A DNA stretch of 64,000 nucleotides from Alphaproteobacteria bacterium (GTDB taxonomy: Bacteria > Pseudomonadota > Alphaproteobacteria > MPNO01). Below are positions 2,537 through 45,076 of this stretch, piece after piece (within the stretch, counting starts at the first letter, position 1; each line of letters begins with the position of its first letter). The stretch spans positions 864,001 through 928,000 of the forward strand of contig OZ219865.1 in assembly GCA_964291675.2 (NCBI GenBank). Direction: 5' to 3'. The position numbers and the translations under genes are program-made. The notes beneath the pieces are model-generated. The model had not been told where the DNA came from. It made no database searches and saw only the letters and a program-made list of their open reading frames with translations.

Positions 2537-3676
2537 TCAATAGAGCGCGCGCCCGCTGCGCCCGCGGTCGATCGCGGCGGCGGTAAGCCCGGGCAGCAGC
2601 GCGCAGAACCTGGCCGCATCCTCCTGCTGCACGGTGGTCGACACCTTGACGAAGCGGTCGGCGAACAGCTTCGACTGGTAGGCCGCCTGGCGGATCATGA
2701 TGCCCTGTTCGAGATACAGCTCGCAGAGCGTCTCCGGCGCGATCCCCGCGGCGCTCACGTCGATCGCCACGAAATTCCCGTTCGACGGGTAGACCGGCAT
2801 GTCGAGCCCGTTGATCGGCCGCACCGCCTCGTAAATCGCGTGCTGGTTGGCGCGCTGGATGCGGTTGACCTCGGGGAACCATTCGTCCCGGGTCCGCAGC
2901 CCGGCGATCGCGCCCCGCTGCGAGACCAAATTGGAGCCGAGGCTGTTGGGCTGGCCGTCGGACAGCATCTCGATTACCGACGGGCGGGCCATCAGGCCGC
3001 CCACCCGGAGCCCGGCGAGGCCGAGCCACTTGGAGAAGCTGTAGGTGGTGACGGTCTTCTCCGGGTAGTGGCGCCAGGCGAGCGTGTGGTCGTGCGCGAA
3101 ATGGCGGTAGGTGCAGTCGTGGATCAGCCAGGCCCCGGCCTCGCGCGCGATATTGGCGAAGGCCGCGATCTCGTCCGCCGAATAGCCGATTCCGAGCGGG
3201 TTGAGCGGATCGATCAGGTAGATCAGCCCGGCCCCGCCGGCCGCCACCGCCTCGGCAAGCTGGCCGGGCGTCAGCCTGAAACCCTGCTCGGCGCGGTAGA
3301 TGGGGAGCGCCACCACCTCGGCGCCCGACAGCCGGGAGAAGGCTTCCGGCCAAGGCCAGCCGGGGTCGGTCGCGATCATCCGCTGGCCGGGGCGCAGCAC
3401 GTGGCGGCAGGCATGGTACAGCCCCTCGACCGCGCCGTCGGTGATCAGCACGTCGGCATCCTCGACCGCGAAATCTTCCAGGATCAGCCGGCGCAGCTCC
3501 TCCAGCCCGGTCGGCGGCGCGTAGGCGTGGTAGTCCTCATGCTCGATCGCTTCGATCATCGCGCGCTTGACCGCGGGGTGGGTGGGCAGGTGGTTGGTGT
3601 TCTGCCCCATCCAGACCGTCCCGCGCCGTTGCGCGAGCGCCTCGAAATGCCGGTTCCGCTCCTGGTAAGGTTGCAT
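2537..3676 (-). CDS. PLP-dependent aminotransferase, class I/II
   Basis: DPLNPLG, HDCTY, SFSKWLGLAGLRVG (PLP lysine motif); start taken at MQPYQERN. Confidence 0.85.
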   Translation of the reverse strand: MQPYQERNRHFEALAQRRGTVWMGQNTNHLPTHPAVKRAMIEAIEHEDYHAYAPPTGLEELRRLILEDFAVEDADVLITDGAVEGLYHACRHVLRPGQRMIATDPGWPWPEAFSRLSGAEVVALPIYRAEQGFRLTPGQLAEAVAAGGAGLIYLIDPLNPLGIGYSADEIAAFANIAREAGAWLIHDCTYRHFAHDHTLAWRHYPEKTVTTYSFSKWLGLAGLRVGGLMARPSVIEMLSDGQPNSLGSNLVSQRGAIAGLRTRDEWFPEVNRIQRANQHAIYEAVRPINGLDMPVYPSNGNFVAIDVSAAGIAPETLCELYLEQGIMIRQAAYQSKLFADRFVKVSTTVQQEDAARFCALLPGLTAAAIDRGRSGRALY

Positions 3677-3768
3677 CGCGCAAGTGTAGAGCATAAGCGC
3701 CCGCGCCGCTGGAAAACGGAGGCGTCCCGGCGCTACCATGCGCATCGTCCAGAGCGCCGGGGGAGGAG

Positions 3769-4779
3769 ATGGCCGAGCACCCCGTACCCACCATCGACAT
3801 CGCGCCCTTCGTCGAGGGCGGCGAGGCGGGGCGCGACGCGGTGGCCCGCGCCGTCGGGCGCGCCTGCGAGGAGACCGGCTTCTTCGCGATCGTCGGCCAC
3901 GGCGTGGCGGAGGAGGAGATCGAGGCGCTGCGCGCCGAGGCCGTCCGTTTCTTCGCCCTGCCGGAAGAGCGCAAACGCCTCGTCGAGCGCCCGGCCGACC
4001 GCATCAGCCGGGGCTGGAATTCGCTCTGCGACCGCTCGCTCGCCTATTCGCTCGGCAAGGAGACCCCGCCCGATTTGCAGGAGAGCTTCGCCATGGGGCC
4101 GGTCGCGGTGCCGGACGAGCCCTACTTCACCTGCGAGCGTGCGCGCGCCTTCTTCGCGCCCAATCTCTGGCCGGAGGGGCGGCCCGCATTCCGCCGGGCG
4201 ATGGAGCGCTACTACCGGTCTATGGAGGGGCTCTCGCAGACGGTGATGCGCATCTTCGCCCGCGCGCTCGGGCGGGACGACGGCTATTTCGACGGCCGCA
4301 TCGACCGGCACTCGTCGAGCCTCCGCCTGATCCGCTACCCCGGGCGCGTCGACGGCGCGGCGGACGGCCAGCGCCGGGCGGGCGAACATCACGACTACGG
4401 ATCGCTCACCATCTTGCGCGGCGACAACCTGCCGGGCGGGCTCCAGGTCAAGCTGCGCCATGGCGGGTGGATCAACGTGGTCAGGCCCAACGGCGGGTTC
4501 ATCTGCAATATCGGCGACGCGATGATGCGCTGGACCAACGACCGCTGGGTGTCGACGCTGCACCGCGTCGGCCTGCCGGAAGGGCCGGACAGCCCCGACC
4601 GGATCTCGCTCGTGTTCTTCCACAACCCCAACTACGACGCCGAGATCCGCTGCATCGCGGCCGACGGCGAGGCGGCGCGCTACCCGCCGTCGGCTTTCGA
4701 TTCCTTCTATGTCGACAAGCTCAGGCGCGGCTCGTTCGGCGCCGCCATGCCGGCGGGGCTTGCAACGCGGGCCGACTGA
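3769..4779 (+). CDS. Isopenicillin N synthase family 2OG-Fe(II) oxygenase
   Basis: VPTIDIAPF, GFFAIVGHG, HHDYGSLT, STLHRV, RISLVFF; GGAGGAG RBS. Confidence 0.9.
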   Translation: MAEHPVPTIDIAPFVEGGEAGRDAVARAVGRACEETGFFAIVGHGVAEEEIEALRAEAVRFFALPEERKRLVERPADRISRGWNSLCDRSLAYSLGKETPPDLQESFAMGPVAVPDEPYFTCERARAFFAPNLWPEGRPAFRRAMERYYRSMEGLSQTVMRIFARALGRDDGYFDGRIDRHSSSLRLIRYPGRVDGAADGQRRAGEHHDYGSLTILRGDNLPGGLQVKLRHGGWINVVRPNGGFICNIGDAMMRWTNDRWVSTLHRVGLPEGPDSPDRISLVFFHNPNYDAEIRCIAADGEAARYPPSAFDSFYVDKLRRGSFGAAMPAGLATRAD

Positions 4780-4933
4780 TGCCAAGAAAGCGCCGGATGG
4801 CGCAAAATACCAAGACGTATCTTGTTAGGCTCTAACCGCGTCTTATCAAGCTGCTCCTGGACTTGACCATCTCGATAACGTCCGCCGCGGGCGAGCGTCC
4901 GGGCGGATCGGCGACAACGCGAAAGGAGTAGCG

Positions 4934-5143
4934 ATGCCTACCGGTACGGTGAAATGGTTCAACGCGACGAAGGGCTACGGCTTTATTCAGCCGAGCGACG
5001 GGTCGAAGGACGCCTTCGTGCATATCTCCGCGGTCGAGCGGGCGGGCCTCAACGGCCTTCGCGAAGGCCAGAAGATCGAGTACGAACTCGTCCCGGGCCG
5101 CGACGGCCGGACGTCCGCGGAGAACCTCGTCGCCCTCGACTGA
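4934..5143 (+). CDS. cspA: Cold-shock protein
   Basis: GTVKWFNATKGYGFIQP and DAFVHISAVE RNP motifs; AAGGAG RBS. Confidence 0.95.
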   Translation: MPTGTVKWFNATKGYGFIQPSDGSKDAFVHISAVERAGLNGLREGQKIEYELVPGRDGRTSAENLVALD

Positions 5144-5200
5144 CCGGCCGGGGCGGGTGCCCCGCGCACCCGTCTCACGGCTTCCTTCCCTCCTTGACCG

Positions 5201-5291
5201 ATCCCTCGATGCGGCGTCTCGCGCCTGCTCGGGATGAAGAGAAGAACACAACCTCATCCTGAGTAGCGGCGAAGCCGCGTATCGAAGGACG
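5201..5291. repeat. Inverted pair of family-1 REP-like units between convergent genes
   Basis: TCCCTCGATGCGG...GCTCGGGATGAAG followed by CTCATCCTGAGTAGCGGCGAAGCCGCGTATCGAAGGACG. Confidence 0.8.
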
Positions 5292-5296
5292 GCGCC

Positions 5297-6532
5297 TCAC
5301 GCCGCGCGCATCGTCTCCGGCGGGCAGACGTCGCGCAGCAGGCGGCGGTCGGGGACGATCTCCCTGCCCTCGCGGAACACCGTCTCCGGCACCAGCCGGC
5401 GCTCGACCGCGAGCTCCTCGCCCGTCGAATCGGCGAGCGTCCAGCGCCCTTCCGCCAGATCCAGCACCGTGATGTCGGCCCGGCTGCCGGGCGCCAGCGT
5501 GCCGATCTCGCCGGCCTCGCCCAGGATCAGGGCCGGGTTGAGCGTCGCCCGCGTCACCACGTCGGCGAGATCCATGCCGAGCGCCCACAGCTTCGACATC
5601 GCGCCGCACAGGCTGTAGTCGAGCTTCGAATCGTCGTGATAGGCGTGGAAGTCGGAATGCACGTCGCTGGAGATCGTGTTGGGCAGCACGCCTTCGGCCA
5701 TCATCCGGCGCGCGATGTCGAAGGAGAAATTGACCCCGTGGCCGATATCGAAGTGGATGCCGCGCTCCAGCGCCTCGTGGACCGCGCGCGGCACATCGTC
5801 GCCCTCCCCCATGATCCCGTCGGGCATGGTTGAGTAAACATGGGCGAGCGTGGTCCCGGGGTTCAGCACCGGCACGACCTCGGCGAGCACGCTTGCCGGG
5901 TCGGGTCGCCTCGCCTCGTCGACCGGGAACAGCTCGCCGGTGTGAACGTAGAGCGGCAGCCCGGTCGCCGCCCCGGCCTCGACCGCCATTCTCAGCACCT
6001 CCAGCCCCCAATGGGAGAGCCCGCCCGATTCGCCGTGGCTCTTGATGCCCTTGACCAGGTTCGGCCAGGCGGCGGCCGCCTCGGCGATGGCCTCGATGCG
6101 CATCATGCCGGGGTTGTGCAGCGTGGTCCCCTCCATGCCGCCCTTGAGCGCGCCGGCGAGGTTGGCGGAGACGAAGGCGCGCACGTCGGTCTCGGCCGGG
6201 CGCGCGACATAGGCGTCGAACCCGCCGATCGTCCAGGCCCCGGCGCTCCCCTGGTCGACGATCGTGGTGGCGCCCGAATGCACCCCCGCCTCGTCCGGGT
6301 GCAGGCCGAAATTGGTCACCCATTCGTAGACATGGACGTGCAGGTCGATCAGCCCGGGACAGACCAGCTTGCCGCGCGCGTCGAAATGCCGCGCCGCGCG
6401 GTGCGGCGGAAGCGCGGGCGCGAACGCCGCGATCCGCCCGTCGCTGACGGCGATCTCGGCGGGTCCGCGGAAGCCGCTGCCGGGATCGACCGCATCGTCG
6501 CAGGCGATGACGAGGTCGTAGGCCTCCGCCAT
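5297..6532 (-). CDS. Amidohydrolase / deacetylase (dihydroorotase-like) metallohydrolase
   Basis: PGLIDLHVH metal motif, GATTIVDQGSAG, FDIGHG, TISSDVH, NPA. Confidence 0.88.
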   Translation of the reverse strand: MAEAYDLVIACDDAVDPGSGFRGPAEIAVSDGRIAAFAPALPPHRAARHFDARGKLVCPGLIDLHVHVYEWVTNFGLHPDEAGVHSGATTIVDQGSAGAWTIGGFDAYVARPAETDVRAFVSANLAGALKGGMEGTTLHNPGMMRIEAIAEAAAAWPNLVKGIKSHGESGGLSHWGLEVLRMAVEAGAATGLPLYVHTGELFPVDEARRPDPASVLAEVVPVLNPGTTLAHVYSTMPDGIMGEGDDVPRAVHEALERGIHFDIGHGVNFSFDIARRMMAEGVLPNTISSDVHSDFHAYHDDSKLDYSLCGAMSKLWALGMDLADVVTRATLNPALILGEAGEIGTLAPGSRADITVLDLAEGRWTLADSTGEELAVERRLVPETVFREGREIVPDRRLLRDVCPPETMRAA

Positions 6533-6537
6533 CGCCC

Positions 6538-6972
6538 CTACTCCGCGGCTTCCGCCGTCGGCGCCGGCTCCGCGGCGGGCACGACCTCCTTGACCGCGCC
6601 CTTCCAGCCGTTCTCGGTGAGGTCGAAGATCTGGCCCAGAGGGTCGCGGTACTTGACCTCGTAGAAGGTGTTCGGGTTGCCGGTCGGCTCGCCCATCACA
6701 TGGGTGGCGCCCGCCGCCTCGACCTTGCGGCGCGCCTCGTCGATGTCGTCGACCCAGATGCCGAAATGCTCGATTCCGTAGAACGGCTCCTCGCCCTCGT
6801 AGCCGAGCGGGCGGCCTTCGCGGGCGAGCAGGGCGACGTTGATCGTGCCGTCCGACATGTAGACGCCCGAGCCGGCCTTGCCGACCGCCGTCATGTCGAA
6901 GGCCTCTTCGAAGAATTTCTGTGCGACCTCCAGATCGGCGACCGAGATCGCGATATGCCGCAGCTTGGCCAT
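6538..6972 (-). CDS. VOC (glyoxalase) family protein
   Basis: KLRHIAISVADLE...HFGIWVDD...EVKYRDPLGQIFDL. Confidence 0.88.
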   Translation of the reverse strand: MAKLRHIAISVADLEVAQKFFEEAFDMTAVGKAGSGVYMSDGTINVALLAREGRPLGYEGEEPFYGIEHFGIWVDDIDEARRKVEAAGATHVMGEPTGNPNTFYEVKYRDPLGQIFDLTENGWKGAVKEVVPAAEPAPTAEAAE

Positions 6973-34663: not shown

Positions 34664-35496
34664 TGAACCGCGAACACCTCACCCTGTACGGGCTCAAGTG
34701 GAACCCGTTCGCCCCTGACCTCCCGGTCGACAGCCTGATGGCGACTGGCGCCGTCGACAGCTTCTGCCTCAGGATCGAACGCCATCTCGTGCGCCACGGC
34801 GGCTTCGCACTGATCGCCGGAGAGCCCGGAACCGGAAAGAGCGTTGCCCTGCGCCTGCTCGCCCACCGGCTCGGGCGATGCGACGGGCTCAGGGTCGCCG
34901 CCATCACCCACCCGTCCTCGAGACTGTCGGACTTCTACCGCGAGATCGGCGAGCTGTTTGGCGTCGACCTGCTGTACAACAATCGCTGGGCCAGCTTCAA
35001 AAACCTGCGCCAGCGCTGGCTCGCGCATCTCGATGACACCCGCATGCGCCCGGTGTTGCTCATCGACGAGGCCCAGGAACTGCTGCCCTCGGTGTTCTCC
35101 GAGATCCGCCTGCTCGCGTCGACCGACTTCGACTCGCGCGCCATCCTCTCCGTCGTCTTCGCCGGTGACAACCGCCTGCTCGACCGGCTCCGCCAGCCCG
35201 ACCTGCAGCCCATCGCCTCGCGTATCCGACAGCGTCTGCTGATGACCCGGACCGAGGACGCCGACCTGGCCGGCCTGCTCGACCATCTGCTCGAAGAGGC
35301 CGGCAATCCGGCGCTGATGACCGCCGGGCTCAGGGACACCCTCGTCACCCATGCCGCAGGAAACCCCAGGGCACTCACCGTCATGGCTGATGCCGTGCTC
35401 GCAGCCGGTGCCGAGAAGGATCGCGAGGTGCTCGACGAGAAGCTCTTCATCGAGACCCTCGGCGAGGCACCGCCAGCCAGGCGGGCCCGGCGATGA
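34663..35496 (+). CDS. ExeA-like AAA ATPase (transposition helper)
   Basis: YGLKWNPF, GEPGTGKS Walker A, LLIDEAQ Walker B, GNPR. Confidence 0.88.
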   Translation: MNREHLTLYGLKWNPFAPDLPVDSLMATGAVDSFCLRIERHLVRHGGFALIAGEPGTGKSVALRLLAHRLGRCDGLRVAAITHPSSRLSDFYREIGELFGVDLLYNNRWASFKNLRQRWLAHLDDTRMRPVLLIDEAQELLPSVFSEIRLLASTDFDSRAILSVVFAGDNRLLDRLRQPDLQPIASRIRQRLLMTRTEDADLAGLLDHLLEEAGNPALMTAGLRDTLVTHAAGNPRALTVMADAVLAAGAEKDREVLDEKLFIETLGEAPPARRARR

Positions 35497-36482
35497 CCGG
35501 CTTCCCGACACGGCCACCGGCCGAACTCGAGGAGCGGCCGCGGGAGCGGCAGTGGCTGGTCGATGCCCTGTGGAGCGAACAGGGGGTCGGCATCGTCGGC
35601 GGCGAGCCCAAGTGCGGCAAGTCCTTCCTCGCGCTGGACCTCGCCGTCGCGGTGGCTGCAGGAGTGCCCTGCCTGCGCCACTTCCGCCCCGCGGCAAGCG
35701 GCACCGTGTTGCTCTTCGCCGCCGAGGACGCCGGTCACATCGTGCGCGACCGCCTCAAGGGCATCGCCCGGGCCGCCGGCGCCGACTTCGAGGCCCTCGA
35801 CATCGCCGTCATCGACGTGCCCACGCTCCGCCTCGATCATCGCCTCGACCGGCAGCGGCTGCTGGAGACCGTCGAACGGATCGGACCGCGCCTCCTCGTC
35901 CTCGATCCCCTGGTCCGCCTGCATGGCGTCGACGAGAACGCGGTTGCGGAAGTCGCTCCCATCCTCGGCTTCCTGCGCGACCTGCAGCGCCGCTTCGGGA
36001 CCGCTGTGCTGCTCGTCCACCACGCTCGCAAGAGTGGCGCCAGCCGCCCCGGCCAGGCGCTGCGCGGCAGCAGCGAGCTGCATGCCTGGGGCGACAGCAA
36101 TCTCTACCTGCGCCGGCGCGACGGGCAGATCGTCATGACCGCCGAGCATCGCGCCGCACCCGGCCTCAACAATATCGAGATCGAGCTTGCCGATGACGGC
36201 GAAGGACCAGCGCTGCAGCTCCGGCGGACAGGACCTCACCAGGCTCCGCCGCAGCCGGACAGCGCCGAACAGCGGATCGCCCAGGTGCTCGCGACAGCCG
36301 AATCCCCACTCGTGCAGTCCGAGATCCGAAAACGCGCCGGGGTACGCAACGCGACTGTCTCCGCGGCACTGCACGGGCTTGTGCGCGAGGGACGGGTCGA
36401 GCGCGGGACGGGAGGTCGCTACCGCTTCCTCGGAACCGCGGCGAACCAAGCCGACAACCCGACGGACAGCCACAACCCGTAG
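35493..36482 (+). CDS. RepA-like (AAA_25 / SF4 helicase-like) ATPase with C-terminal winged HTH
   Basis: WLVDALW, GGEPKCGKS, AAED, LLVLDPL, VHHARKSG, RGSSEL. Confidence 0.82.
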   Translation: MTGFPTRPPAELEERPRERQWLVDALWSEQGVGIVGGEPKCGKSFLALDLAVAVAAGVPCLRHFRPAASGTVLLFAAEDAGHIVRDRLKGIARAAGADFEALDIAVIDVPTLRLDHRLDRQRLLETVERIGPRLLVLDPLVRLHGVDENAVAEVAPILGFLRDLQRRFGTAVLLVHHARKSGASRPGQALRGSSELHAWGDSNLYLRRRDGQIVMTAEHRAAPGLNNIEIELADDGEGPALQLRRTGPHQAPPQPDSAEQRIAQVLATAESPLVQSEIRKRAGVRNATVSAALHGLVREGRVERGTGGRYRFLGTAANQADNPTDSHNP

Positions 36483-36551: not shown

Positions 36552-38571
36552 CACCAGCGCACAATGCCCCACGAAACTGCCTGAAGCGATCGGCCAATGG
36601 CCGAAAGCTCTGCTTACGGCCATGGCAGCCCTCTGGCGCGGGGACGGCGGCGGGTCACCCGAAGGGCCGTAGCGGAGCGAAGGAGCCGCGAAGCGGCTTG
36701 AAGCGCCGACGGCCTCGCGACACTCCCCGCCCGGCCTTCCTGCAAACGGCAGACGATCCCCATCGAATAACGCGAAATCCGCACCATCAAACAACGTGCG
36801 CGCGCTCACCGGTCCCGTCCTCGACCCGGGTATGGCTGGCCTGCGGGGTGACCGACATGCGCAAGGGGTTCCCGGGGCTTGCGGCGCAGGCGGAGCGGGT
36901 GTTGAAGGCGGATCCGCATTGCGGCCATCTCTTCATCTACCGGGGCCGTCGGGGCGACCTGATCAAGATGATCTGGTGGGACGGCCAGGGAGCGTGCCTG
37001 TTCTCGAAGCGTCTTGAGCGCGGCCGTTTCGTGTGGCCGTCGGCGTCGGAGGGCAAGGTTTCGGTGACGCCGGCGCAGCTGTCGATGCTGTTGGAGGGGA
37101 TCGACTGGCGGGCGCCGGTTCGCACCTGGCGGCCTTTGGCGGCGGGATGATTCATCGTTTATATACAATAGGTTGACTCCTATCCGGGCTTCCCTTTGGC
37201 GGCCTTTTCCTGTAGGCTGCGGTCATGCTCGAAGAGGCGCATTCCCTGCCTGACGACATCGCCGCACTGAAGGCGATGGTGCTGTCCTCGCGGGCCGAGG
37301 TGGCGGCGCGGGACGCCGAGTTGCGCAACCGTGACCTTCTGATCGAGAAGCTCAAGCACCAGCTTGCGGGTCTGCGCCGCCAGCGCTTCGGCGCCACTTC
37401 GGAGGCCCTCGATCAGCTTGAGCTCGGGCTGGAGGACGAGGAGATCGCGCGCTCGGCCGAGACGTTTGCCGAGCCAGCCCCGGCGGCAAAGAGACAGCCC
37501 AAGCGCCGTCCCTTGCCGGACCACCTGCCGCGCGAGGAGACGCATCTCGCGCCTTCAGGCGATCGCTGCGCGGACTGCGGCGGTCGCCTCAAGCGTCTCG
37601 GCGAGGATGTGACCGAGGAGCTGGAGTACATCCCCGGCCGCTTCGTGGTGAAGCGCATCGTGCGCCCGCGCCTGGCCTGCGGCGGCTGTGAGACGTTCCA
37701 CCAAGCGCCGCTGCCGTCGCGGCCGATCGAGCGCGGCCGTCCGGGCCCGGGCCTTCTGGCGCATGTGCTGGTCTCGAAGTACTGCGATCACCTGCCGCTC
37801 TACCGTCAGTCGCGTATCTTCGCCCGCGATGGCGTCGATCTCGACCGCTCGACGCTGGCCGGCTGGGTGGGCAAGGCGACGGCGCTGCTGGAGCCCCTGG
37901 CCGATGCCGTCGGGCGCCATGTTCTGGGCGGCCAAGCCCTGTTCGCCGACGACACCCCGGTCAAGTTGCTGGCGCCGGGGACCGGCAAGACGGCGACGGG
38001 TCGGGCCTGGACCTATGTCCGCGACGAGCGTCCGTGGAAGGGCGAGGCATCGCCGGCGGCGTGGTATCGCTTCTCGGCCGACCGCAAGGCGGCGCATCCG
38101 AAGAGCCATCTCGCGGGCTACGCCGGCTGGATGCACTCGGACGGCTATGCCGGCTTCGGCGCACTGGCGCGCGCGGGGCCGGTCCGCGAGGTCGCCTGCC
38201 TGGCCCATGTGCGGCGCAAGTTCTTCGACGTCCACGCCGCTCAGGGCTCGGCGGTCGCCGCCGAGGCGCTGGAACGGATCGCCGCGCTCTACGCCATCGA
38301 GAAGGAGGTCCGCGGGCAGCCCCCAGAGCGCCGCGTCGCGATCCGCCGCGCCAAGGCCGCGCCGCACCTCGATGAGTTCGAGCGCTGGCTGCAAACGCAA
38401 CTGCCGAAGCTCTCCGCCAAGACCCCGCTGGCGGCGGCGATCCGCCATGCGCTGACCCGGCTGAAGCGCCTGCGGCCCTATATCGAGCACGGCTTCCTCG
38501 AGATCGACAACAACCCGGCCGAGCGCGCGATGCGCCCGATCGCGACGATGGAGTCATTCTGCACCCCTTCT

Positions 38572-40644
38572 TCAAGTGTCTGAAAACATTGACATCTGAT
38601 CCCGACATGAAGCGCGACGCGGGTCTTTCCGCAGTGCCAGGGCGTTGGCGACCCGCTCGGAATGGAGGTCTTTGGCCCTGATTTGCCAGGGCGCTCCGGG
38701 AACGAGTTGCGTGGCAGGTAGCGTTCCATCCTCGATCAGGCGCCTGAGGGTATGGCTGGTCGTGCCCAACTCTTTCGCCGCCTCGGTCATGGTGCGCCAG
38801 TCGCCCTGCTTGTCCGCTGAGAGGTAGCCGTCGATCCCGTTCACACGCCGGATCGATCCGACCCGGTGAGCGGTCCAACTCTTGTGCTGCCCGGTCCGCA
38901 TACCCATCCGGTTGAGCGACGCGGCGATATGTTCGTCCGACCATCGCCCGGCCATGCTGCGTATCACTGCCAGAGCTTCCTCGGGCGTTCGGCAGCCATG
39001 TTCGCCGCTCTTGGGCTTGCGGACCCTGAGACGGGAATGACGGCCACCCATCCAGTGGATCGTCAGCAGGACGTCACGCGCCTCTTCGTCGACATCGACG
39101 ATTATGCCCATGATCAGGGTGCGCACGAGACGCTGGCGGGCGCGCATGCTCACCCCGGGCGCGTTCCAGGCGGCCTTCAGGTCGTCGGCAAGTCCGGCCA
39201 GGTCGGGGACAGTGGGCCGCGGCGACGGCATCGCGCCCAGCCTTGCTTCGCACGCCTGGACGCGTCGAAGCGCTGCCTCCCAACTCTTCTCCAGCTCGGC
39301 GGCGATCAGCCGGTTGTCCGGATCGCAGGCGGCGTAGCGCCGCTCGGCGAGCGCCGCCTCGTAGCGGGCTTGCTGCAGATCCAGCTCGGCCACCCGTTGC
39401 TGTTCGGAAAGACCCTCCGCGTTCATCCGCTCGGCTTCCAACGAGGCTTCCACCGCCATGGGCTCCACGACGCGGAGGATCTCATCGGCAACGGCCGCAT
39501 CCACACGCGCACCCCCGAACCCCAGACAGGGCTCTAGCTCGAGCTGGAGGTGTCGCCGATTGCAGCGGTAGACAGGATTGCCGGGCGTGCGACCGGAATA
39601 GGCAACGCTCATCGTGCGTCCGCAGCGTGCGCAACTGAGGAGGCCGCCAAGAAGCGCCCGCCCGCCGCGCCCCGACTTCGTGCCCCCCGCCTTGCCGAAG
39701 GCATTGGCGGCGAGCTGCGCCTGGTTGCGCTCGAACTCCGGCCAGTCGATGTAGCCCTCGTGATGGTCCTTCAGCACGACCTCCCATTCCGCCATCGGCT
39801 TGCGGTGTCCATAGCTCTTGCGCACGCGCCCGTCGACGATCTCGGTCCGCCGCTCGCTTTTGCCGTAAGCGTAGACCCCGGCGTAGAAAGGGTTCTTCAA
39901 CACCGAAATTACGTTGCGATAGCGGATCGGCGTCCAGTCGAAGGAGACCATTGTCCTGCCATCCGACGGGCGTGGGAAGCAAAGCTTCTGCCCGCTCAGC
40001 GCCAGCAACACCTGCCGCGCGCTGCCAAGCTCGCGAAACCGGGCGAATACCTGACGGATCGCTTCCTGAACCCGAATGTCGGGGTCCAGCCCCAGCCCGG
40101 CCTCGGGATGCCAGACGTAGCCGATCGGGACGCTGATGCGAAGCTCGCCGCGGGCGGCCTTGGAGCGGGCGGCCTCGAACATCCGAGCGCGCAGAACGCC
40201 GAGTTCGAACTCGCTGATCTGGCCCTTCATGCCGAGCAGCAGACGATCGTTGGGGTGGCGAGGATCGTAGATGCCATCCTGGTCGATGACGCGTGCCTCG
40301 ACGAGACCGCAGAGCTCGAGAAGATGGTGCCAGTCCCGGCCGTTGCGAGAGACCCGCGAAGCCTCGAAACAAAGCACGGCTCCAACGTCCCCGGCGCACA
40401 GCCAGGCGACGAGGCGCTCGAAACCGGGCCGCGCAACGGCACCGTCCGCCGACAGGCCCTGATCGTCGTCGATGACTTCGACCCGGGCAAAGCCGTGCCC
40501 GCGCGCCACATCGACGAGATCGTATTGGCGGCGCTGGCTCTCCAGATTGTTCCGCATCTGCTGGGGCGTGGACTGACGGACATAGACCACGGCCTTGCGC
40601 GTCAACACCGATCGCGGCAACGCTTCAGCGACGCCCATCGTCAT
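38572..40644 (-). CDS. Large serine recombinase (resolvase, recombinase, Zn-ribbon, coiled coil, C-terminal HTH)
   Basis: AVVYVRQS catalytic Ser, EASRVSRN, LKNPFYAG, CARCG...YRC. Confidence 0.93.
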   Translation of the reverse strand: MTMGVAEALPRSVLTRKAVVYVRQSTPQQMRNNLESQRRQYDLVDVARGHGFARVEVIDDDQGLSADGAVARPGFERLVAWLCAGDVGAVLCFEASRVSRNGRDWHHLLELCGLVEARVIDQDGIYDPRHPNDRLLLGMKGQISEFELGVLRARMFEAARSKAARGELRISVPIGYVWHPEAGLGLDPDIRVQEAIRQVFARFRELGSARQVLLALSGQKLCFPRPSDGRTMVSFDWTPIRYRNVISVLKNPFYAGVYAYGKSERRTEIVDGRVRKSYGHRKPMAEWEVVLKDHHEGYIDWPEFERNQAQLAANAFGKAGGTKSGRGGRALLGGLLSCARCGRTMSVAYSGRTPGNPVYRCNRRHLQLELEPCLGFGGARVDAAVADEILRVVEPMAVEASLEAERMNAEGLSEQQRVAELDLQQARYEAALAERRYAACDPDNRLIAAELEKSWEAALRRVQACEARLGAMPSPRPTVPDLAGLADDLKAAWNAPGVSMRARQRLVRTLIMGIIVDVDEEARDVLLTIHWMGGRHSRLRVRKPKSGEHGCRTPEEALAVIRSMAGRWSDEHIAASLNRMGMRTGQHKSWTAHRVGSIRRVNGIDGYLSADKQGDWRTMTEAAKELGTTSHTLRRLIEDGTLPATQLVPGAPWQIRAKDLHSERVANALALRKDPRRASCRDQMSMFSDT

Positions 40645-40810
40645 CCTCCTTCACCGGGGCGGTCGCCGCTTCCAGAAGCAACCCGGCCACTGCGCTCACC
40701 ACCGCGTCTCGTTCCTCCGAGCTCAGACCGCGCAGCGTCGGTGCGTCGAGCGGCATGCCGAGCTGTCGGGGTTCTCTCGGCGGTCGCGCTGTTACAGGCA
40801 AAGACTTCAT
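40625..40810 (-). CDS. Small hypothetical protein overlapping the recombinase start
   Basis: MKSLP...PRQLGMPLD...ERDAVVSAVAGLLLEAA; GGAGAGGAG RBS upstream. Confidence 0.6.
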   Translation of the reverse strand: MKSLPVTARPPREPRQLGMPLDAPTLRGLSSEERDAVVSAVAGLLLEAATAPVKEDDDGRR

Positions 40811-41120
40811 CGCGCTCCTCTCCGCTAACGGTTCCGTCATCGGGGGAGCTATGTCGAAAACCTTGGCCGACGAGAAGCTCGTGAAGTGCGGCGAGGGCGG
40901 CCGGGGAGGCACGCGGCGCGCCGATCTCCATGCCGGCGCATGACGCAGGATCAAGCATCCAGGCGGGTATCTTGATGATCAGCCCCGGCTCTACCTCGAC
41001 GGAGGCCATGAGGCCGTCTGCACGCTGTTCGATAACTTCAGGGCGTACTCGCCGACCGAACAGTGCGTGCCAGCGGTAGTGGATGACGCAATCCTGCCCG
41101 ATATGGGCAGAATGAATGCG
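40641..41120 (-). CDS. Element ORF open to the att boundary; start supplied by the other end after excision
   Basis: Open frame RIHSAHIGQDCVIHYRWHALFGRRV...IPAWMLDP with no stop or ATG between the att core and Met at 41009. Confidence 0.6.
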   Translation of the reverse strand, partial: RIHSAHIGQDCVIHYRWHALFGRRVRPEVIEQRADGLMASVEVEPGLIIKIPAWMLDPASCAGMEIGAPRASPAALAALHELLVGQGFRHSSPDDGTVSGEERDEVFACNSATAERTPTARHAARRTDAARSELGGTRRGGERSGRVASGSGDRPGEGG

Positions 41121-41434
41121 CGATCGCCTTGGGCCGGAAGAACTATCTCTTCATGGGCTCAGCCAGCGGCGGCCGGGCCGCCGCCATCGCCTACACCTTG
41201 ATCGAGACCGCAAGGCTCAACCACGTCGACCCGCAGGCTTGGCTTGCCCAGGTTCTCGAGCGCATCCCCGACTACAAGATCAACCGCGTCGAAGAACTGC
41301 TGCCCTGGAACTGAACGCCGACCGCAGATCAGGGCCAAATCGCCTGAACGCCCAGGGCGGCTCCGCCCAACGCTTACGTTTCGAACAACGCGGCGGCACC
41401 ACATCGCTGTTCGCCCCAATGGAGGAAGCAAGTC

Positions 41435-42313
41435 ATGAATCGATATTCCATGTCTGCTGCGATCGCCGGAGCTTCTCTTGTTCTCGCCGCATGCGGCGGC
41501 GGCGACGGAACAGACGGCGGCGGCCCTTCGCAGCCCCGGATACCGGCGAGCCATACCATCCAGCTACCGATGACAAGCGGACCCGCCGTATCCGGTGTGT
41601 ATGACGAAGACAGCGAGCTCACGGGGCTCATGGTCGGGGAAACCGCGGTCGGGTTGAACCAGCGGATAAGTGGGGTCAGCGGCGGCGGCGGGCGCGAGGT
41701 CGTGGGACCGGTGCTGCAAAGCGGGGAGGTCATCGTTCGCCATGTCACCGACCACTGGAACAGGCGGACCGATGCGGTCGCGGCTTTCGAATTCATGTCC
41801 TTCGGAGCCTGGGCGACGGGGACGACGGAATCGCTCCCGGGCGGCGGAGCGGAATTCAACTTCCAAAGCATCGGCAGCGCCTATCTGACGGCCCTTGACG
41901 ATGCGAGAACGCCAAACGCGGAAATGCCGGCGTCCGGAACGGCCAGCTATCTCGGGCAGTTTACCGGCTTCGTTCAAGCCCATGGGACCGATGTGGACAT
42001 CCGCCGCACCACCGGCGACGTCGAGATGACCGCCGATTTCGCGAACGCCGAGACGACCGTGGATATGCTGTCCACGAGAGGTAGCAGGTTGGTACTTAGC
42101 GGCGCCATCCAGGGCAGCGAGTTCTCGGGAACCGCCATCGATCAGATGTCGCCCAGCTCGTTGATCGAGTCCCAGGGCGCCACAGCGCGGTTCAGCGGCG
42201 GTTTCTACGGGACGGCGGCCGTCGAGGCGGGCGGCGTGTTCGAGGTCGTCGGAGGCCGCGCGCAGGATCCCGGCCGCCTGGTGGGCGCGTTCGGCGGACG
42301 CAAGGACCAGTGA
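41435..42313 (+). CDS. TbpB-like (transferrin-binding protein beta-barrel) surface lipoprotein
   Basis: Lipobox LVLAAC-GGG; ASYLGQF, MTADFA, FSGGFYG..AVEAGGVF, GAFGGRK; GGAGG RBS. Confidence 0.75.
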   Translation: MNRYSMSAAIAGASLVLAACGGGDGTDGGGPSQPRIPASHTIQLPMTSGPAVSGVYDEDSELTGLMVGETAVGLNQRISGVSGGGGREVVGPVLQSGEVIVRHVTDHWNRRTDAVAAFEFMSFGAWATGTTESLPGGGAEFNFQSIGSAYLTALDDARTPNAEMPASGTASYLGQFTGFVQAHGTDVDIRRTTGDVEMTADFANAETTVDMLSTRGSRLVLSGAIQGSEFSGTAIDQMSPSSLIESQGATARFSGGFYGTAAVEAGGVFEVVGGRAQDPGRLVGAFGGRKDQ

Positions 42314-42669: not shown

Positions 42670-42993
42670 TGAGACCAAATCGTAATGCCGATGGGTGGCG
42701 ACTCGATGGACGGAAATTCAGGCGACAGGCGTTTGCGGCGAAGAAAAGCTTGGGCCTTCACGCTCGGTGATGGGCATTGCGGGTCAATTCGCATACGCGC
42801 TGAACGACGATTTGCGAGGTCTGGTCTCTAGCTTCTAGTCCGTAAGGCCACTACCCTCCGCGCCGCAGCCGATCTTGCGGCTTTGGCACCGCGACCTCAT
42901 GCCTGAATCAGGGTATCCGCCAACTCTCCGTGCCGCATCGCCACTTTGCTTTGCAACTCGGGACGTGCCGTCGGACCGGGTGGGAAAGGATCG

Positions 42994-43462
42994 ATGACCG
43001 TCAAGTTCATCCATACGTCGGACTGGCAGGTCGGGAAGGTCTTCCGCTTTGTCGACAATGCGACGATGGGGCTTCTCCAGGAAGCCCGACTGCGGGCCAT
43101 ATCGCGGCTGGGTGAACTGGCCGGGGAGCACGACGCGGACCATGTACTGGTGGCAGGCGACGTCTATGACATGGAGGCGCTGTCGCCGCGTTCGCTTAAC
43201 CAACCACTGGAGCGGATGCGTGGATTCCCCAGCGTCCGGTGGCATCTGTTGCCGGGCAATCATGATCCGCACCGCCCCAACGGGATCTGGGATCAGCTCC
43301 TCCGCATAGGTTTGCCCGAGAACGTCAGCGTTCATGTCGCGCCCGAGCCGGCGGTAGTTGAGAACGAGGACTTTGTCCTCTTGCCGGCACCGCTGCTTCA
43401 TCGCCGGACGCTCGACGATCTCACGGCCTACATGGACGACGTTGACTTGCCCGAAGGTCTAG
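42994..43462 (+). pseudogene. Mre11/SbcD-like metallophosphoesterase (DNA exonuclease), truncated by IS1380
   Basis: FIHTSDWQVG, VAGDVYD, LPGNHD; homology stops at the IS end before the expected HG motif. Confidence 0.85.
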
Positions 43463-45076
43463 TTCGGTCTATTCGGCACGGGGCGATGAAGTAGCGGCGA
43501 ACGTGGCGTAAGTCGTTGTCATAGGGTAGAAATTCGTTGTCCAGCGACCTTCTGCCCCGGCAACGAAAGCGCCACGCCCGCCATCACCGAAGTTAGCCTT
43601 CTCCCGTTCGATCTTCCAGCCGTACAACGCAAGAAGGTGACCGCCGATTTCGCGGGCGGCCTGATCTCTTCCGACGGCGGTCTGGTGCTGCTGGGCGCGG
43701 CGGAGCGCCGGCTCGGGCTGGCCGATGCGCTGGCCGGCTGCATCCGGGAGTGGCGCGACCCGGCGCGGACGGTGCACACGCTGGCGGCGATGCTGCGCTT
43801 CCGGATGTTCGCGATCGCCTGTAGGTACGAAGACGCCGACGACTGCGATGCGCTGCGCGGCGATCCGCTGTTCAAGCTGGCGGTGGGCCGGGCGCCGGAG
43901 AGCGGGCGCGATCTGTGTTCCCAGCCCACCATGAGCCGTCTGGAGAATGGGCCCTCGCGGATCGCGGTGGCGCGCCTGACGGCGGCGCTGGTCGACATCT
44001 TCTGTCGCTCCTTCCCGATCCCGCCGGCGGCGATCACGCTGGACATCGACGACACCTGCGACCGGGTTCACGGCCACCAGCAGCTCTCGCTGTTCAACGC
44101 GCATTACGACACGCGCTGCTTTCTTCCGGTCCATGTCTACCATGTCGAGAGCGGCAGGCCGGTGGCGGTTCTCCTGCGCCCCGGCAAGACGCCGTCGGGC
44201 GTCGAGGTCCGCACCCTGCTCAAGCACCTGGTGCGCCGCATCCGCCGGCACTGGCCGCGCACCCGGCTGACCGTCCGGGGCGACAGCCATTACGGCCGCC
44301 GCGAGGCGATGGACTGGTGCGAGGCGAACGGCGTCGACTACATCTTCGGCCTGGCCGGCAACGCCGCCCTGCACGCCCTTGCCTACGCCGTCGGCGACGA
44401 CCTCAAGCTGCGCCGCGCCGAGGCCGGGGTCGACCGGATGCGCGGCTTCGCCGACTTCGCTTACGCCGCCGGATCGTGGAACCGCGAACGCCGCGTCGTC
44501 GCCCGGCTGGAGGCCACCGCGCGCGGCTTCGACGCGCGCTACATCGTCACCTCGCTCGAAGGCTCGCCGCGCCGTCTCTACGAAGCGGTGTACTGCGCGC
44601 GCGGCCAGGCCGAGAACCTCATCAAGCAGCACAAGGTCCAGCTCGCCTCCGACCGCACCTCCTGCCAGAGCCCGACCGCCAACCAGTTCCGCCTGGTGCT
44701 CCACACCGCCGCCTACTGGCTGATGCTCGCGCTCCGCGACGCCGTGCCGCGCAGGATGCCGCTCCACTGGGCCGAGTTCGCGACCCTCCGCAAGAGCCTG
44801 CTCAAGATCGGCGCCCGCGTCGTCGAGAAGGCCGCGCGCATCCGCATCCACTTCGCATCGGCCTGCCCCGACGCCGCCCTGTTCCGCATGCTGGCCGGGC
44901 GGCTCGCGGCCTCGGGACCCTGACCGCCGGGGCGACGTGCCCCAAGAGCCCGAGACCCTTCAACCCCCAACCCTGACAACGAAAACCGCGGACCCCGACG
45001 CCCCAAAGGCGCCGAACGGTGGCCCTTGCGCGCTCGACATTAACCGTTAAACGCGCCGTCTCGCGAATAAGTCGGG
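43463..45076 (+). mobile_element. IS1380 family element
   Basis: Ends TTCGGTCTATTCG / CGAATAAGTCGGG flanked by CTAG on both sides. Confidence 0.8.
43583..44923 (+). CDS. IS1380 transposase (expected start appears as ATC at 43583; in-frame GTG at 43637)
   Basis: LPFDLPAVQRKKVTADFAGGLISSDGG, SQPTMSRLEN, LDIDDT, RGDS, YCARGQAENLIK. Confidence 0.88.
   Translation: MTEVSLLPFDLPAVQRKKVTADFAGGLISSDGGLVLLGAAERRLGLADALAGCIREWRDPARTVHTLAAMLRFRMFAIACRYEDADDCDALRGDPLFKLAVGRAPESGRDLCSQPTMSRLENGPSRIAVARLTAALVDIFCRSFPIPPAAITLDIDDTCDRVHGHQQLSLFNAHYDTRCFLPVHVYHVESGRPVAVLLRPGKTPSGVEVRTLLKHLVRRIRRHWPRTRLTVRGDSHYGRREAMDWCEANGVDYIFGLAGNAALHALAYAVGDDLKLRRAEAGVDRMRGFADFAYAAGSWNRERRVVARLEATARGFDARYIVTSLEGSPRRLYEAVYCARGQAENLIKQHKVQLASDRTSCQSPTANQFRLVLHTAAYWLMLALRDAVPRRMPLHWAEFATLRKSLLKIGARVVEKAARIRIHFASACPDAALFRMLAGRLAASGP

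What the first reader, a model, noticed from the sequence alone, without database searches (positions are those of the whole stretch)
38537..41127. Serine-recombinase element with a gene that exists only in the excised circle
Seen: the 2.6-kb element sits in IS66 tnpC between duplicated CGATCGC cores. On the minus strand, just after the recombinase stop, the left end reads AGAAGGGGTGCAGA-ATG ACT CCA TCG TCG CGA TCG, i.e. RBS, ATG and 7 codons ending in the core. The right end begins with an open, start-less frame CGC ATT CAT TCT GCC CAT ATC GGG. Joining the ends at the core gives one in-frame ORF, MTPSSRSRIHSAHIGQDCVIHYRWHALFGRRV...IPAWMLDP, of about 166 aa. The joined site has 9-bp inverted arms (GCAGAATGA / TCATTCTGC) centred on a GC dinucleotide inside the core, as expected of a serine-integrase attP. 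Excision also restores tnpC (MRPIA-LGRKN). Inference: integration switches this gene off and excision switches it on, giving a head-to-tail circular three-gene operon. The product could be a directionality, targeting or circle-maintenance factor of a minimal IS-parasitising element.
Basis: partly seen in the sequence, partly recalled or inferred. Interest (0 to 1): 0.88.

Follow-up and report, generated by a model that had tools for sequence, protein, structure and literature searches.

The report
Recombinase element with a split gene
A 2.6-kb mobile element sitting inside an IS66 transposase gene carries a conserved gene whose ribosome-binding site, start codon and first five codons lie at the opposite end of the element, so the gene is whole only when the element's ends are joined.

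Summary
A 2,584-bp element (38544-41127) interrupts IS66 tnpC. On the minus strand it carries ORF A (no start codon), a 61-aa ORF B nested in ORF A's tail, and a 690-aa large serine recombinase (LSR).

A second copy in a different IS66 pins the crossover to one GC dinucleotide, flanked by 10-bp spacers and 9-bp inverted arms. Contigs from three runs hold the empty tnpC site.

The family is large: 414 genome loci and 2,559 protein clusters. In 50 of 51 loci a strong Shine-Dalgarno tract and an ATG follow the LSR stop. That ATG lies 27 nt, in frame, from ORF A's first conserved codon across the junction.

Of 55 integrated copies, 22 have a stop and no start upstream. Only 10 gain an ATG from the flank, and those lack a Shine-Dalgarno tract. 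The internal Met is unique to this copy (1 of 55).

One metagenome contig and seven database proteins carry the joined form.

ORF A folds as an SH3-like barrel. A complex prediction places it on the LSR's zinc-ribbon and coiled-coil base, where directionality factors bind (0.72; best control 0.00).

Not shown: circle formation in this organism, expression, or which recombination direction ORF A favours. The palindromic GC core with strongly biased insertion orientation is unexplained.

The parts
37225..38543 (+). IS66 tnpC, 5' part, up to and including the crossover GC (attB left arm)
   Evidence: Pfam DDE_Tnp_IS66, zf-IS66 and LZ_Tnp_IS66. Contigs join 38536 to 41121.
38542..38543 (.). Crossover dinucleotide GC at the junction next to the recombinase end ('far' junction)
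   Evidence: Copy 3 and locus L052 share only GC between attP and attB. 27 of 35 loci have the same dinucleotide at both ends, and 22 of those are GC.
38544..38562 (-). Far half of attP: a 10-bp spacer (38544-38553) and a 9-bp arm (38554-38562). It holds the ATG (38557-38555) and the first codons of ORF A.
   Evidence: ATG is at this place in 50 of 51 related loci.
38564..38570 (-). Purine-rich Shine-Dalgarno tract, 6 nt upstream of the far-end ATG, between the recombinase stop and the arm
   Evidence: Positions -13 to -7 are at least 95% purine in 43 distinct sequences. Median duplex energy is -9.3 kcal/mol over 37 windows.
38572..40644 (-). Large serine recombinase, 690 aa: resolvase, recombinase and zinc-ribbon domains, a coiled coil (379-471), and a C-terminal extension with an HTH_17/MerR-like helix-turn-helix (618-661)
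   Evidence: Pfam, alignment A4, AlphaFold2 model.
40625..40810 (-). ORF B, 61 aa, with its own ATG and a Shine-Dalgarno-like tract. It lies in the +1 frame inside ORF A's tail and ends 17 nt into the recombinase gene.
   Evidence: Conserved at protein level in 41 sequences. No Pfam family.
40641..41125 (-). Body of ORF A (161 codons plus stop), with no start codon. Its stop overlaps the recombinase start.
   Evidence: Protein-level conservation starts at about codon 6 after the first His. Residues 4-97 fold as an SH3-like barrel plus helices.
41107..41125 (-). Near half of attP: a 9-bp arm (41107-41115, which encodes the His-Ser-Ala of ORF A) and a 10-bp spacer (41116-41125)
   Evidence: The six codons from the first His show synonymous diversity of 0.00-0.08 in 54 distinct sequences, which indicates DNA-level constraint.
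41126..41127 (.). Crossover dinucleotide GC at the junction next to ORF A ('near' junction)
41126..41314 (+). IS66 tnpC, 3' part (attB right arm, Leu-Gly-Arg-Lys-Asn motif onward)
   Evidence: Pfam DDE_Tnp_IS66_C and the empty-site joint.

Best explanation
This is a minimal mobile element of about 2.6 kb, driven by a large serine recombinase. It inserts at a 2-bp crossover in the conserved Ile-Ala-Leu-Gly-Arg-Lys stretch of IS66-family tnpC genes.

Its attP overlaps the 5' end of its first gene. The Shine-Dalgarno tract, the ATG and five codons of ORF A lie just after the recombinase stop at one end of the integrated element. The remaining 161 codons start at the other end. ORF A therefore has a proper translation start only when the ends are joined, in the excised circle or in any head-to-tail form. 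In that form the genes run ORF A (with ORF B nested), then the recombinase, then back to ORF A. ORF A's stop overlaps the recombinase start, and the recombinase stop lies next to or overlaps ORF A's start.

Shown here: the anatomy, its conservation across the family, the existence of the empty site, and the existence of the joined frame in assemblies.

Inferred: ORF A protein binds the recombinase at the base of its coiled coil and modulates recombination. I think it most likely favours or permits re-integration of the non-replicating circle, so that the state of the DNA itself sets which accessory factor is present.
For: Anatomy
- The crossover is pinned to GC by copy 3 in a different IS66 and by L052.
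- Repeat-collapsed contigs L053, L063 and L101 begin and end at GC.
- The empty-site joint is present in 3 of 3 DNA runs laid.

Far-end start signal
- With loci anchored only on recombinase C-terminal homology, 50 of 51 have ATG at the same place. The exception, L057, has ATA. With the stricter anchor it is 48 of 49.
- Median Shine-Dalgarno duplex energy is -9.3 kcal/mol (n=37). Flank-supplied ATGs give -1.0 to -6.3 (n=10). Random own-genome 17-mers have a median of -2.8, and 2.1% reach -9.3.
- In 8 loci the recombinase stop overlaps this ATG, and in one more it abuts it.
- In the far arm the ATGA is invariant while the other five positions vary.

No start inside the element
- The internal Met is present in 1 of 55 relatives. 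Only 3 of 55 have any Met within 45 residues.
- Of 55 integrated copies, 22 meet a stop before any start.

ORF A is a real gene
- Synonymous diversity is 0.3-0.6 with conserved residues from codon 6 on.
- 2,559 cluster representatives match at E<=0.001.
- The AlphaFold2 model has pLDDT above 90 over residues 11-60.

Joined form exists as DNA
- L150 was the 1 true hit of 30 pattern matches.
- Database proteins P0023, P0064, P0134, P0138, P0175, P0177 and P0215 start 9 residues before the first His, with the pentapeptides that far ends encode.
- 36 of 36 virtual junction frames have no stop.

Binding to the recombinase
- The complex prediction scored 0.72 against a best control of 0.00. That mark was reached by 58 of 80 solved complexes and 2 of 110 mismatched pairs. 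The runs agree in at least 82% of contacts and the partner's pLDDT is at least 71.
- The interface residues on the recombinase are 337-344, 388-405 and 476-538. These lie on the zinc ribbon and the coiled-coil base in the model.
- That is the region where directionality factors bind phiC31 integrase (10.1101/2025.05.02.651858, passages).
Against: - No circle joint ('goes back') was listed when contigs of four runs were laid on the locus. Contigs drop rare forms, so this is weak.
- The joined pattern was absent from the own genome and from five genomes with several copies.
- The in-frame relation follows from the fixed geometry of the site (4+10+2+10+1 = 27 nt). It is one shared feature, not many independent ones.
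- The ATG is part of an inverted arm, so some of its conservation could reflect recombinase binding.
- 10 of 55 integrated copies have an in-frame flank ATG. Many database proteins were called from such a start: 38 of 124 and 11 of 73.
- L150 carries an IS3 insertion in ORF A. It is therefore a stably kept molecule (a tandem or plasmid-borne form) rather than a transient circle.
- No promoter-like site was found.
- If ORF A acted like a classical directionality factor, making it in the circle would hinder re-integration. The direction of its effect is a guess.
Confidence: 0.72

Rival explanations
1. ORF A is normally translated in the integrated state from a start supplied by the target. The antisense strand of the conserved Lys-Ser-Trp codons of tnpC gives an in-frame ATG ten codons before the first His. 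The gene would then be completed by integration, not by excision.
For: Own copy 3 and L027/L030 read through from such an ATG. 10 of 55 integrated copies have it. 38 of 124 and 11 of 73 database homologs with the His-Ser-Ala-His motif start exactly there. Copy 3 even forms a complete ORF A-ORF B fusion from this ATG.
Against: It depends on synonymous codon choice in the target. 22 of 55 copies, the window's among them, have a stop and no start. The ten flank ATGs have no Shine-Dalgarno tract, with energies of -1.0 to -6.3 kcal/mol against -9.3 at the far end. It leaves the conserved far-end Shine-Dalgarno tract, the ATG and the stop-start overlaps unexplained. Gene callers need a start, so database counts are biased towards copies that have one.
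Confidence: 0.13
2. The far-end ATG and purine tract are only parts of the recombinase binding site (attP), and their likeness to a translation start is incidental. ORF A would then be made at low level from non-canonical starts or by read-through, in either state.
For: The ATG is the mirror image of the His codon in the other arm. The first six codons of ORF A are fixed at the DNA level. The frame relation follows from site geometry. A118 attP needs 50 bp (PMC3556126, abstract), so the purine tract could just reach into the site.
Against: The two half-sites are not symmetric beyond the 9-bp arm. In the far arm only ATGA is invariant while the other positions vary. The purine tract has real anti-Shine-Dalgarno affinity at the right spacing. 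In 8 loci the recombinase stop overlaps the ATG. No alternative start is conserved.
Confidence: 0.1
3. The window's copies are dead remnants, and ORF A lacks a start because it is decaying.
For: Copy 3 has a 1-nt deletion in ORF A. Two partial copies exist in the genome.
Against: The window copy and its twin have intact ORF A, ORF B and recombinase frames. The start-less layout is the family norm, not a defect of this copy.
Confidence: 0.03

Closest known systems
Tn4451/Tn4453 with the large resolvase TnpX (Clostridium)
   Same: A small element is moved by a large serine recombinase through a non-replicating circle. Joining the ends creates an expression signal that the integrated form lacks. 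[quoted passage not shown]
   Different: There a promoter for the recombinase gene is assembled. Here the ribosome-binding site, start codon and five codons of an accessory gene are joined to its body. The present element carries no cargo, targets one conserved motif of IS66 tnpC, and uses mostly a GC core.
SSV-type 'suicidal' tyrosine integrases of archaeal viruses and plasmids
   Same: The recombination site lies inside a gene of the element. That gene is fragmented by integration and is whole only in the circular form (PMC8371274, passages).
   Different: There the split gene is the tyrosine integrase itself, and that review calls the trait exclusive to archaea. Here the recombinase (serine type, bacterial) stays intact and a separate recombinase-binding candidate is split, only 5 codons from its start.
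Recombination directionality factors of serine integrases (for example phiC31 gp3)
   Same: These are small, sequence-diverse proteins that bind the zinc-ribbon domain and the hinge at the base of the coiled coil and switch the reaction's direction (10.1101/2025.05.02.651858, passages). ORF A is predicted to sit at the equivalent place.
   Different: No activity was tested. ORF A's supply is tied to the state of the DNA rather than to a regulatory circuit. If it is made only in the circle, it should favour integration, the opposite of a classical factor.
DUF5372 (PF17342) genes next to large serine recombinases, such as the second element in this genome (G000 C1 about 1134.5-1137.8 kb, locus L112)
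   Same: The gene order is a small SH3-like protein, then a small middle gene, then a recombinase of about 700 aa with a C-terminal helix-turn-helix. The element is inserted in a gene, and attP lies between the recombinase stop and the first gene.
   Different: In L112 the DUF5372 gene is whole. The crossover (CG) lies about 33 nt upstream of its ATG. The middle gene is a 152-aa HTH_32 protein, and the target is not IS66.
gin element in gerE of Bacillus cereus
   Same: It is a small, non-prophage, gene-intervening element (PMC5595907, abstract only).
   Different: It is a developmental excision element in a sporulation gene. No split element gene is reported in the abstract.

Membership tests
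Large serine recombinases | N-terminal resolvase catalytic domain with the conserved serine | tested here: met
   PF00239 matches at 2e-20 over residues 18-167. Arg23-Gln24-Ser25 is invariant in 23 aligned relatives. That this serine is the nucleophile is recalled knowledge of the family, not tested here.
Large serine recombinases | Recombinase domain, zinc-ribbon domain and a coiled-coil insertion | tested here: met
   PF07508 matches at 1e-17 and PF13408 at 2.5e-07. The AlphaFold2 model has two long helices, 379-439 and 445-471, after the ribbon strands.
Large serine recombinases | Exchange at a central 2-bp overlap between imperfectly palindromic attP and attB sites | tested here: met
   Copy 3 and L052 share only GC between attP and attB. 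The arms are 9 bp, each 10 bp from the centre.
Large serine recombinases | Asymmetric central dinucleotide that sets the orientation of integration | tested here: not met
   22 of 35 loci with both ends have the palindromic GC at both ends. Yet near flanks are 41 antisense to 1 sense tnpC, and far flanks are 28 to 6. This is a property of most studied members (PMC3556126). Failing it makes this an atypical member but does not exclude it.
DUF5372 (PF17342) | Match to the Pfam model above its cut-off | tested here: inconclusive
   P0001 has no hit, and 1 of 55 relatives matches at E=0.0026. The profile-profile comparison with five true members gives probability 25.5% and E=7.5e-4 over 65 columns. 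Language-model features: 29 of 30 nearest clusters carry DUF5372, score 0.94. The motif pattern and gene neighbourhood are the same.
Recombination directionality factors of serine integrases | Binds the integrase at the zinc-ribbon and coiled-coil base and changes which att sites recombine | tested here: inconclusive
   The binding place is predicted only: 0.72 against a best control of 0.00. The effect on recombination cannot be tested with these tools.
IS66 family (the target) | TnpB_IS66 gene followed by a tnpC with DDE_Tnp_IS66 and IS66_C domains | tested here: met
   41 of 51 related near flanks and 28 of 39 far flanks are tnpC pieces in the window's arrangement.
Elements whose circle junction creates an expression signal | A signal that is split in the integrated form and complete in the joined form | tested here: met
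   The Shine-Dalgarno tract and ATG are at one end and the gene body at the other. The joined frame is seen in L150 and in 7 database proteins. Use of the signal in cells was not tested.

The most novel reading that the evidence does not exclude
ORF A is a 'reverse' directionality factor. It binds the serine recombinase at the coiled-coil base but is synthesised only from the joined attP form. The topology of the element's own DNA, not a regulatory circuit, then decides the direction of recombination: excision without ORF A, and fast re-integration with ORF A plus translationally coupled recombinase. This would be a self-contained directionality switch for a three-gene parasite of IS66. It might also explain how a palindromic core still gives one orientation.
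Probability: 0.3. Interest if true: 0.85.

Novelty: new variant of a known kind. Interest (0 to 1): 0.72.

Why it matters
Serine integrases are unidirectional unless a directionality factor is present. How minimal elements without regulatory circuits time that factor is an open question.

Here a widespread family, with no description found in the searched literature, appears to solve it by placing attP inside the 5' end of a recombinase-binding candidate gene. The family comprises 414 genome loci, 167 plasmid records and 2,559 protein clusters. With this layout the gene's translation start exists only in the joined form.

This extends two known ideas to a new case. One is the circle-junction promoter, as in Tn4451. 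The other is the archaeal integrase gene that is split by integration. The new case is a bacterial serine-recombinase element and an accessory gene.

It also explains why annotation pipelines miss or truncate this gene. It offers a compact, sequence-specific integrase and cofactor pair with a defined 50-bp target that can be tested directly. Finally, it identifies a parasite of IS66 elements whose excision restores tnpC exactly.

Tried and rejected
Searches that gave nothing useful

- The repeat finder did not show the 7-bp core or the 9-bp arms among the families and pairs it listed. I confirmed them by reading and by script.
- Megablast of the element against plasmids found no match.
- The promoter and terminator scan of 38300-41400 found 0 sites. 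Where the operon's promoter lies is unknown.
- Fold searches for ORF A gave only generic SH3/KOW/Tudor barrels: Foldseek had no match at E<=0.001, and VIA gave Z up to 6.3.
- ORF B has no Pfam family. NCBIfam hits of the recombinase were all far below their cut-offs.

Looking for the circle or joined form

- Read laying on four runs (all Logan contigs) listed no circle joint, only the empty-site joint. The RNA run X18 covered parts of a roughly 95% relative in integrated form. It shows neither strand nor expression.
- The junction pattern gave 0 matches in 125 held loci, 0 in the own genome and 0 in five multi-copy genomes.
- In viral contigs, 15 stretches matched and none was real. In metagenome contigs, 30 matched and 29 were chance or unrelated genes.
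- blastn of L150's junction region against plasmids found no match.

Ideas rejected

- Internal Met at 41009 as the start: 1 of 55 relatives has it.
- A flank-supplied start as the general rule.
- A conserved protein read outward from the far-end ATG into the flank. Those frames are Arg/Cys-rich, with a median of 28 codons and a range of 5-198.

My own errors, corrected

- I first read a 6-bp repeat as the core of the second element (L112), with its ATG inside the core. Empty paralogs show the crossover is a CG about 33 nt upstream.
- My first far-end finder picked false arms in rows with 3 mismatches. I replaced it with anchoring on recombinase homology.
- The position table is blurred by 9 mis-anchored sequences.

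Left unresolved

- The boundaries of the 4.7-kb DUF5372 element of genome G239.

- The look-up of encoding contigs is announced as closed and I did not call it. I therefore could not fetch the DNA of the contigs behind the seven junction-type proteins.
- I did not ask for supplements of papers.

Full report
**What is there**

- IS66 tnpC is cut after its Met-Arg-Pro-Ile-Ala codons and resumes with Leu-Gly-Arg-Lys-Asn. Pfam finds DDE_Tnp_IS66 in the left piece and DDE_Tnp_IS66_C in the right piece, and TnpB_IS66 lies upstream.
- Between the pieces lie 2,584 bp. On the minus strand they hold three genes:
  - an open frame without a start (ORF A, 41125 down to 40641);
  - a 61-aa ORF B (40810-40625) in the +1 frame inside ORF A's tail;
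  - a 690-aa large serine recombinase (40644-38572). It has resolvase, recombinase and zinc-ribbon domains and an extra C-terminal helix-turn-helix.
- After the recombinase stop come a purine tract, an ATG (38557-38555) and four and two-thirds further codons, and then the 7-bp repeat.

**Ends and crossover**

The genome holds three full copies and two partial relatives:
- the window's copy;
- an identical one with the same IS66 flanks on contig 2;
- a 97% copy inside a different IS66.

In the third copy the two junctions share only GC with the target. Locus L052 pins the same two bases. attP is therefore arm (9 bp), spacer (10 bp), GC, spacer (10 bp), arm (9 bp). The window's 7-bp 'duplication' is GC plus chance likeness between attP and this attB.

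Further support:
- Repeat-collapsed contigs from isolates begin and end exactly at GC.
- Of 35 related loci with both ends, 27 have the same dinucleotide at both ends: GC 22, AC 2, and AG, TT and CA 1 each.
- Element length is 2,581-2,623 bp.
- When contigs of four public runs were laid on the locus, the three DNA runs each held a contig joining 38536 to 41121. This is the uninterrupted tnpC, at greater depth than the element.
- No circle joint was listed. These were assembled contigs, which drop rare forms.

**The family**

- ORF A has 55 homologs in a first search and 370 at E<=1e-10 with a profile.
- It matches 2,559 cluster representatives at E<=0.001.
- 414 genome loci were found, of which 80 were kept.
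- 167 plasmid records match, mostly rhizobia. The gene there is often uncalled or called from an internal start.
- It is patchy among near kin: 5 of 20 genomes of the family and 5 of 78 of the order at E<=1e-10.
- The target is nearly always IS66 tnpC. 41 of 51 near flanks are the antisense 3' part of tnpC, 1 is the sense 5' part and 9 are unassigned. 28 of 39 far flanks are the antisense 5' part, 6 are the sense 3' part and 5 are unassigned.

**Is ORF A a gene, and where does it start?**

ORF A is under protein-level selection. From about the sixth codon after the first His, residues are conserved while synonymous diversity is 0.3-0.6. The six codons from that His are fixed at the DNA level (0.00-0.08 in 54 distinct sequences). 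This marks them as part of the recombinase's binding site as well. AlphaFold2 folds residues 4-97 with high confidence as an SH3-like barrel plus helices, and the tail 98-162 is disordered.

No start is conserved inside the element. The window's internal Met is unique (1 of 55), and only 3 of 55 relatives have any Met in the first 45 residues.

Upstream, in the integrated state, lies the antisense of tnpC. Among 55 integrated copies:
- 22, including the window's, meet a stop before any start;
- 10 have an ATG ten codons upstream, created by the antisense of Lys-Ser-Trp codons;
- 6 have a TTG or GTG three codons upstream;
- 2 have a GTG five codons upstream;
- 14 have only distant starts;
- 1 has neither a start nor a stop within the sequence held.

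The common N-termini of database homologs are this flank-derived reading. The flank ATGs have no Shine-Dalgarno tract.

**The other end**

I anchored loci only on homology to the recombinase's last 110 residues. Of the 51 with a readable far end, 50 have ATG at the same place, and L057 has ATA. It is preceded by a purine tract at the right spacing:
- median duplex energy with an anti-Shine-Dalgarno 9-mer is -9.3 kcal/mol over 37 distinct windows;
- only 2.1% of random own-genome 17-mers reach that value.

In 8 loci the recombinase stop overlaps this ATG, and in one more it abuts it. In the far arm the four bases ATGA are invariant while the other five vary.

The distance from this ATG to the first His codon across the joined site is 27 nt by the site's geometry. 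None of 36 virtual junction frames holds a stop. ORF A's own stop overlaps the recombinase start in nearly all loci. In the joined form, translation of the three genes is therefore linked head to tail.

Read outward into the flank, the far-end ATG gives only short, unconserved frames.

**Does the joined form exist?**

- A pattern made of the two arm motifs 22 nt apart matched none of 125 held loci.
- It also matched nothing in the own genome or in five multi-copy genomes.
- Among 30 metagenome matches one is real. L150 runs from the recombinase 3' end through the stop, purine tract, ATG and junction into an ORF A relative, which is then cut by an IS3 element.
- Among database homologs whose N-terminus reaches the motif, 10 start nine residues before the first His (5 of 124; 5 of 73).
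- Seven of those 10 begin with the pentapeptides that far ends encode. Two match exactly and five match in 4 of 5 residues. Two of their contigs are 2,712 and 2,731 nt long, close to one element plus an assembly overlap.

**What ORF A may do**

- A complex prediction of ORF A (residues 1-100) with the recombinase scored 0.72 against a best control of 0.00. The runs agree in at least 82% of contacts and the partner's pLDDT is at least 71. That mark was reached by 58 of 80 solved complexes and 2 of 110 mismatched pairs.
- The contacts fall on the zinc ribbon (337-344), the foot of the two coiled-coil helices (388-405, 476-495) and the following small domain (502-538) in the recombinase model.
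- This is where directionality factors bind phiC31 integrase. It is a prediction, not a measurement.
- ORF A resembles DUF5372 in motif and neighbourhood, but membership is inconclusive.
- A true DUF5372-HTH-recombinase element elsewhere in this genome has its crossover about 33 nt upstream of a complete DUF5372 gene. The split gene is thus a derived, more compact state of a common layout.
- Two natural ORF A-ORF B fusions (copy 3; P0011) suggest that the two small proteins work together.

**Mechanism, with steps marked**

Shown:
- site-specific insertion at a 2-bp core in IS66 tnpC;
- exact empty sites;
- a conserved translation start at one end and a start-less conserved gene at the other;
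- the joined frame in assemblies.

Inferred:
- The element excises as a circle.
- Only then is ORF A made efficiently, and its translation is coupled to the recombinase's.
- ORF A binds the recombinase and biases the reaction. I favour a bias towards re-integration, because a non-replicating circle must re-insert quickly. This parallels junction promoters of other elements.

A classical excision-promoting role fits less well with synthesis in the circle.

**What does not fit**

The GC core is palindromic. In studied serine integrases this abolishes orientation. Yet junction types are strongly biased: 41 to 1 on the near side and 28 to 6 on the far side. The minority types show that the other orientation does occur. 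The rarity of the sense-tnpC-into-ORF A junction could mean selection against read-through from IS66. This is unexplained.

**Comparison and novelty**

The closest known cases are:
- Tn4451/Tn4453, whose circle forms a promoter for TnpX (title seen in a reference list);
- archaeal SSV-type integrases, whose own gene is split by integration.

Literature searches found no description of this family or of a split accessory gene in a serine-recombinase element. The searches covered IS66 with serine recombinase, circle junction with start codon, and DUF5372. That library lacks many subscription papers. I rate the finding a new variant of a known kind.

Noticed in passing
G000 contig C1 about 1134470-1137830 (locus L112, about 3467-6834); a near-identical region near the end of contig C2 (about 3649400-3652760): A second, unrelated serine-recombinase element: a DUF5372 gene (108 aa), an HTH_32 protein (152 aa) and a 718-aa recombinase. 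It is inserted at a CG in a Cys-rich gene that has uninterrupted paralogs at C2:3227333-3227896 and C2:1613597-1614166.
   Followed up: partly
G000 contig C2:3465908-3468712 (copy 3 of the element): A 1-nt deletion fuses the folded part of ORF A in frame to ORF B. The flank of this copy supplies an in-frame ATG, giving one complete A-B fusion frame. Database protein P0011 is a similar fusion.
   Followed up: partly
window 38542-38543 and 41126-41127; related loci L030-L109: The crossover dinucleotide is the palindrome GC in most family members, yet insertion orientation relative to tnpC is strongly biased. Six loci (L042, L065, L066, L087, L092, L096) have the sense 3' part of tnpC after the far end. 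L048 has 5' parts of tnpC on both sides. These look like chimeric or rearranged copies.
   Followed up: partly
window 40625-40810 (minus strand): ORF B is a conserved 61-aa protein with an acidic end. It is encoded entirely within the +1 frame of ORF A's disordered tail and overlaps the recombinase start by 17 nt. It has no known family.
   Followed up: partly
locus L150 (metagenome contig, 2,389 nt): The one contig with the joined arrangement has an IS3-family element (two transposase frames, 217-1745) inserted in the ORF A relative. The molecule was therefore stably maintained rather than a transient circle.
   Followed up: no
locus L024 (genome G017 contig C9): A relative of the element lies in the opposite orientation in tnpC. 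About 2 kb is inserted between ORF A and the recombinase gene.
   Followed up: no
window 42946-44923: A metallophosphoesterase-like frame (42946-43494) is followed directly by a DDE_Tnp_1_4 transposase gene (43637-44923). This may be another insertion. A TbpB-like beta-barrel lipoprotein gene lies at 41435-42313, and an AAA_25 gene at 35493-36482 lies just upstream of the IS66.
   Followed up: no
G000 contigs C1 and C2: The IS66 with its element (3.4 kb, 100% identical) and the second recombinase element each occur on both contigs. Estimated contamination is 6.7%. Some of this duplication may come from the assembly rather than from biology.
   Followed up: no
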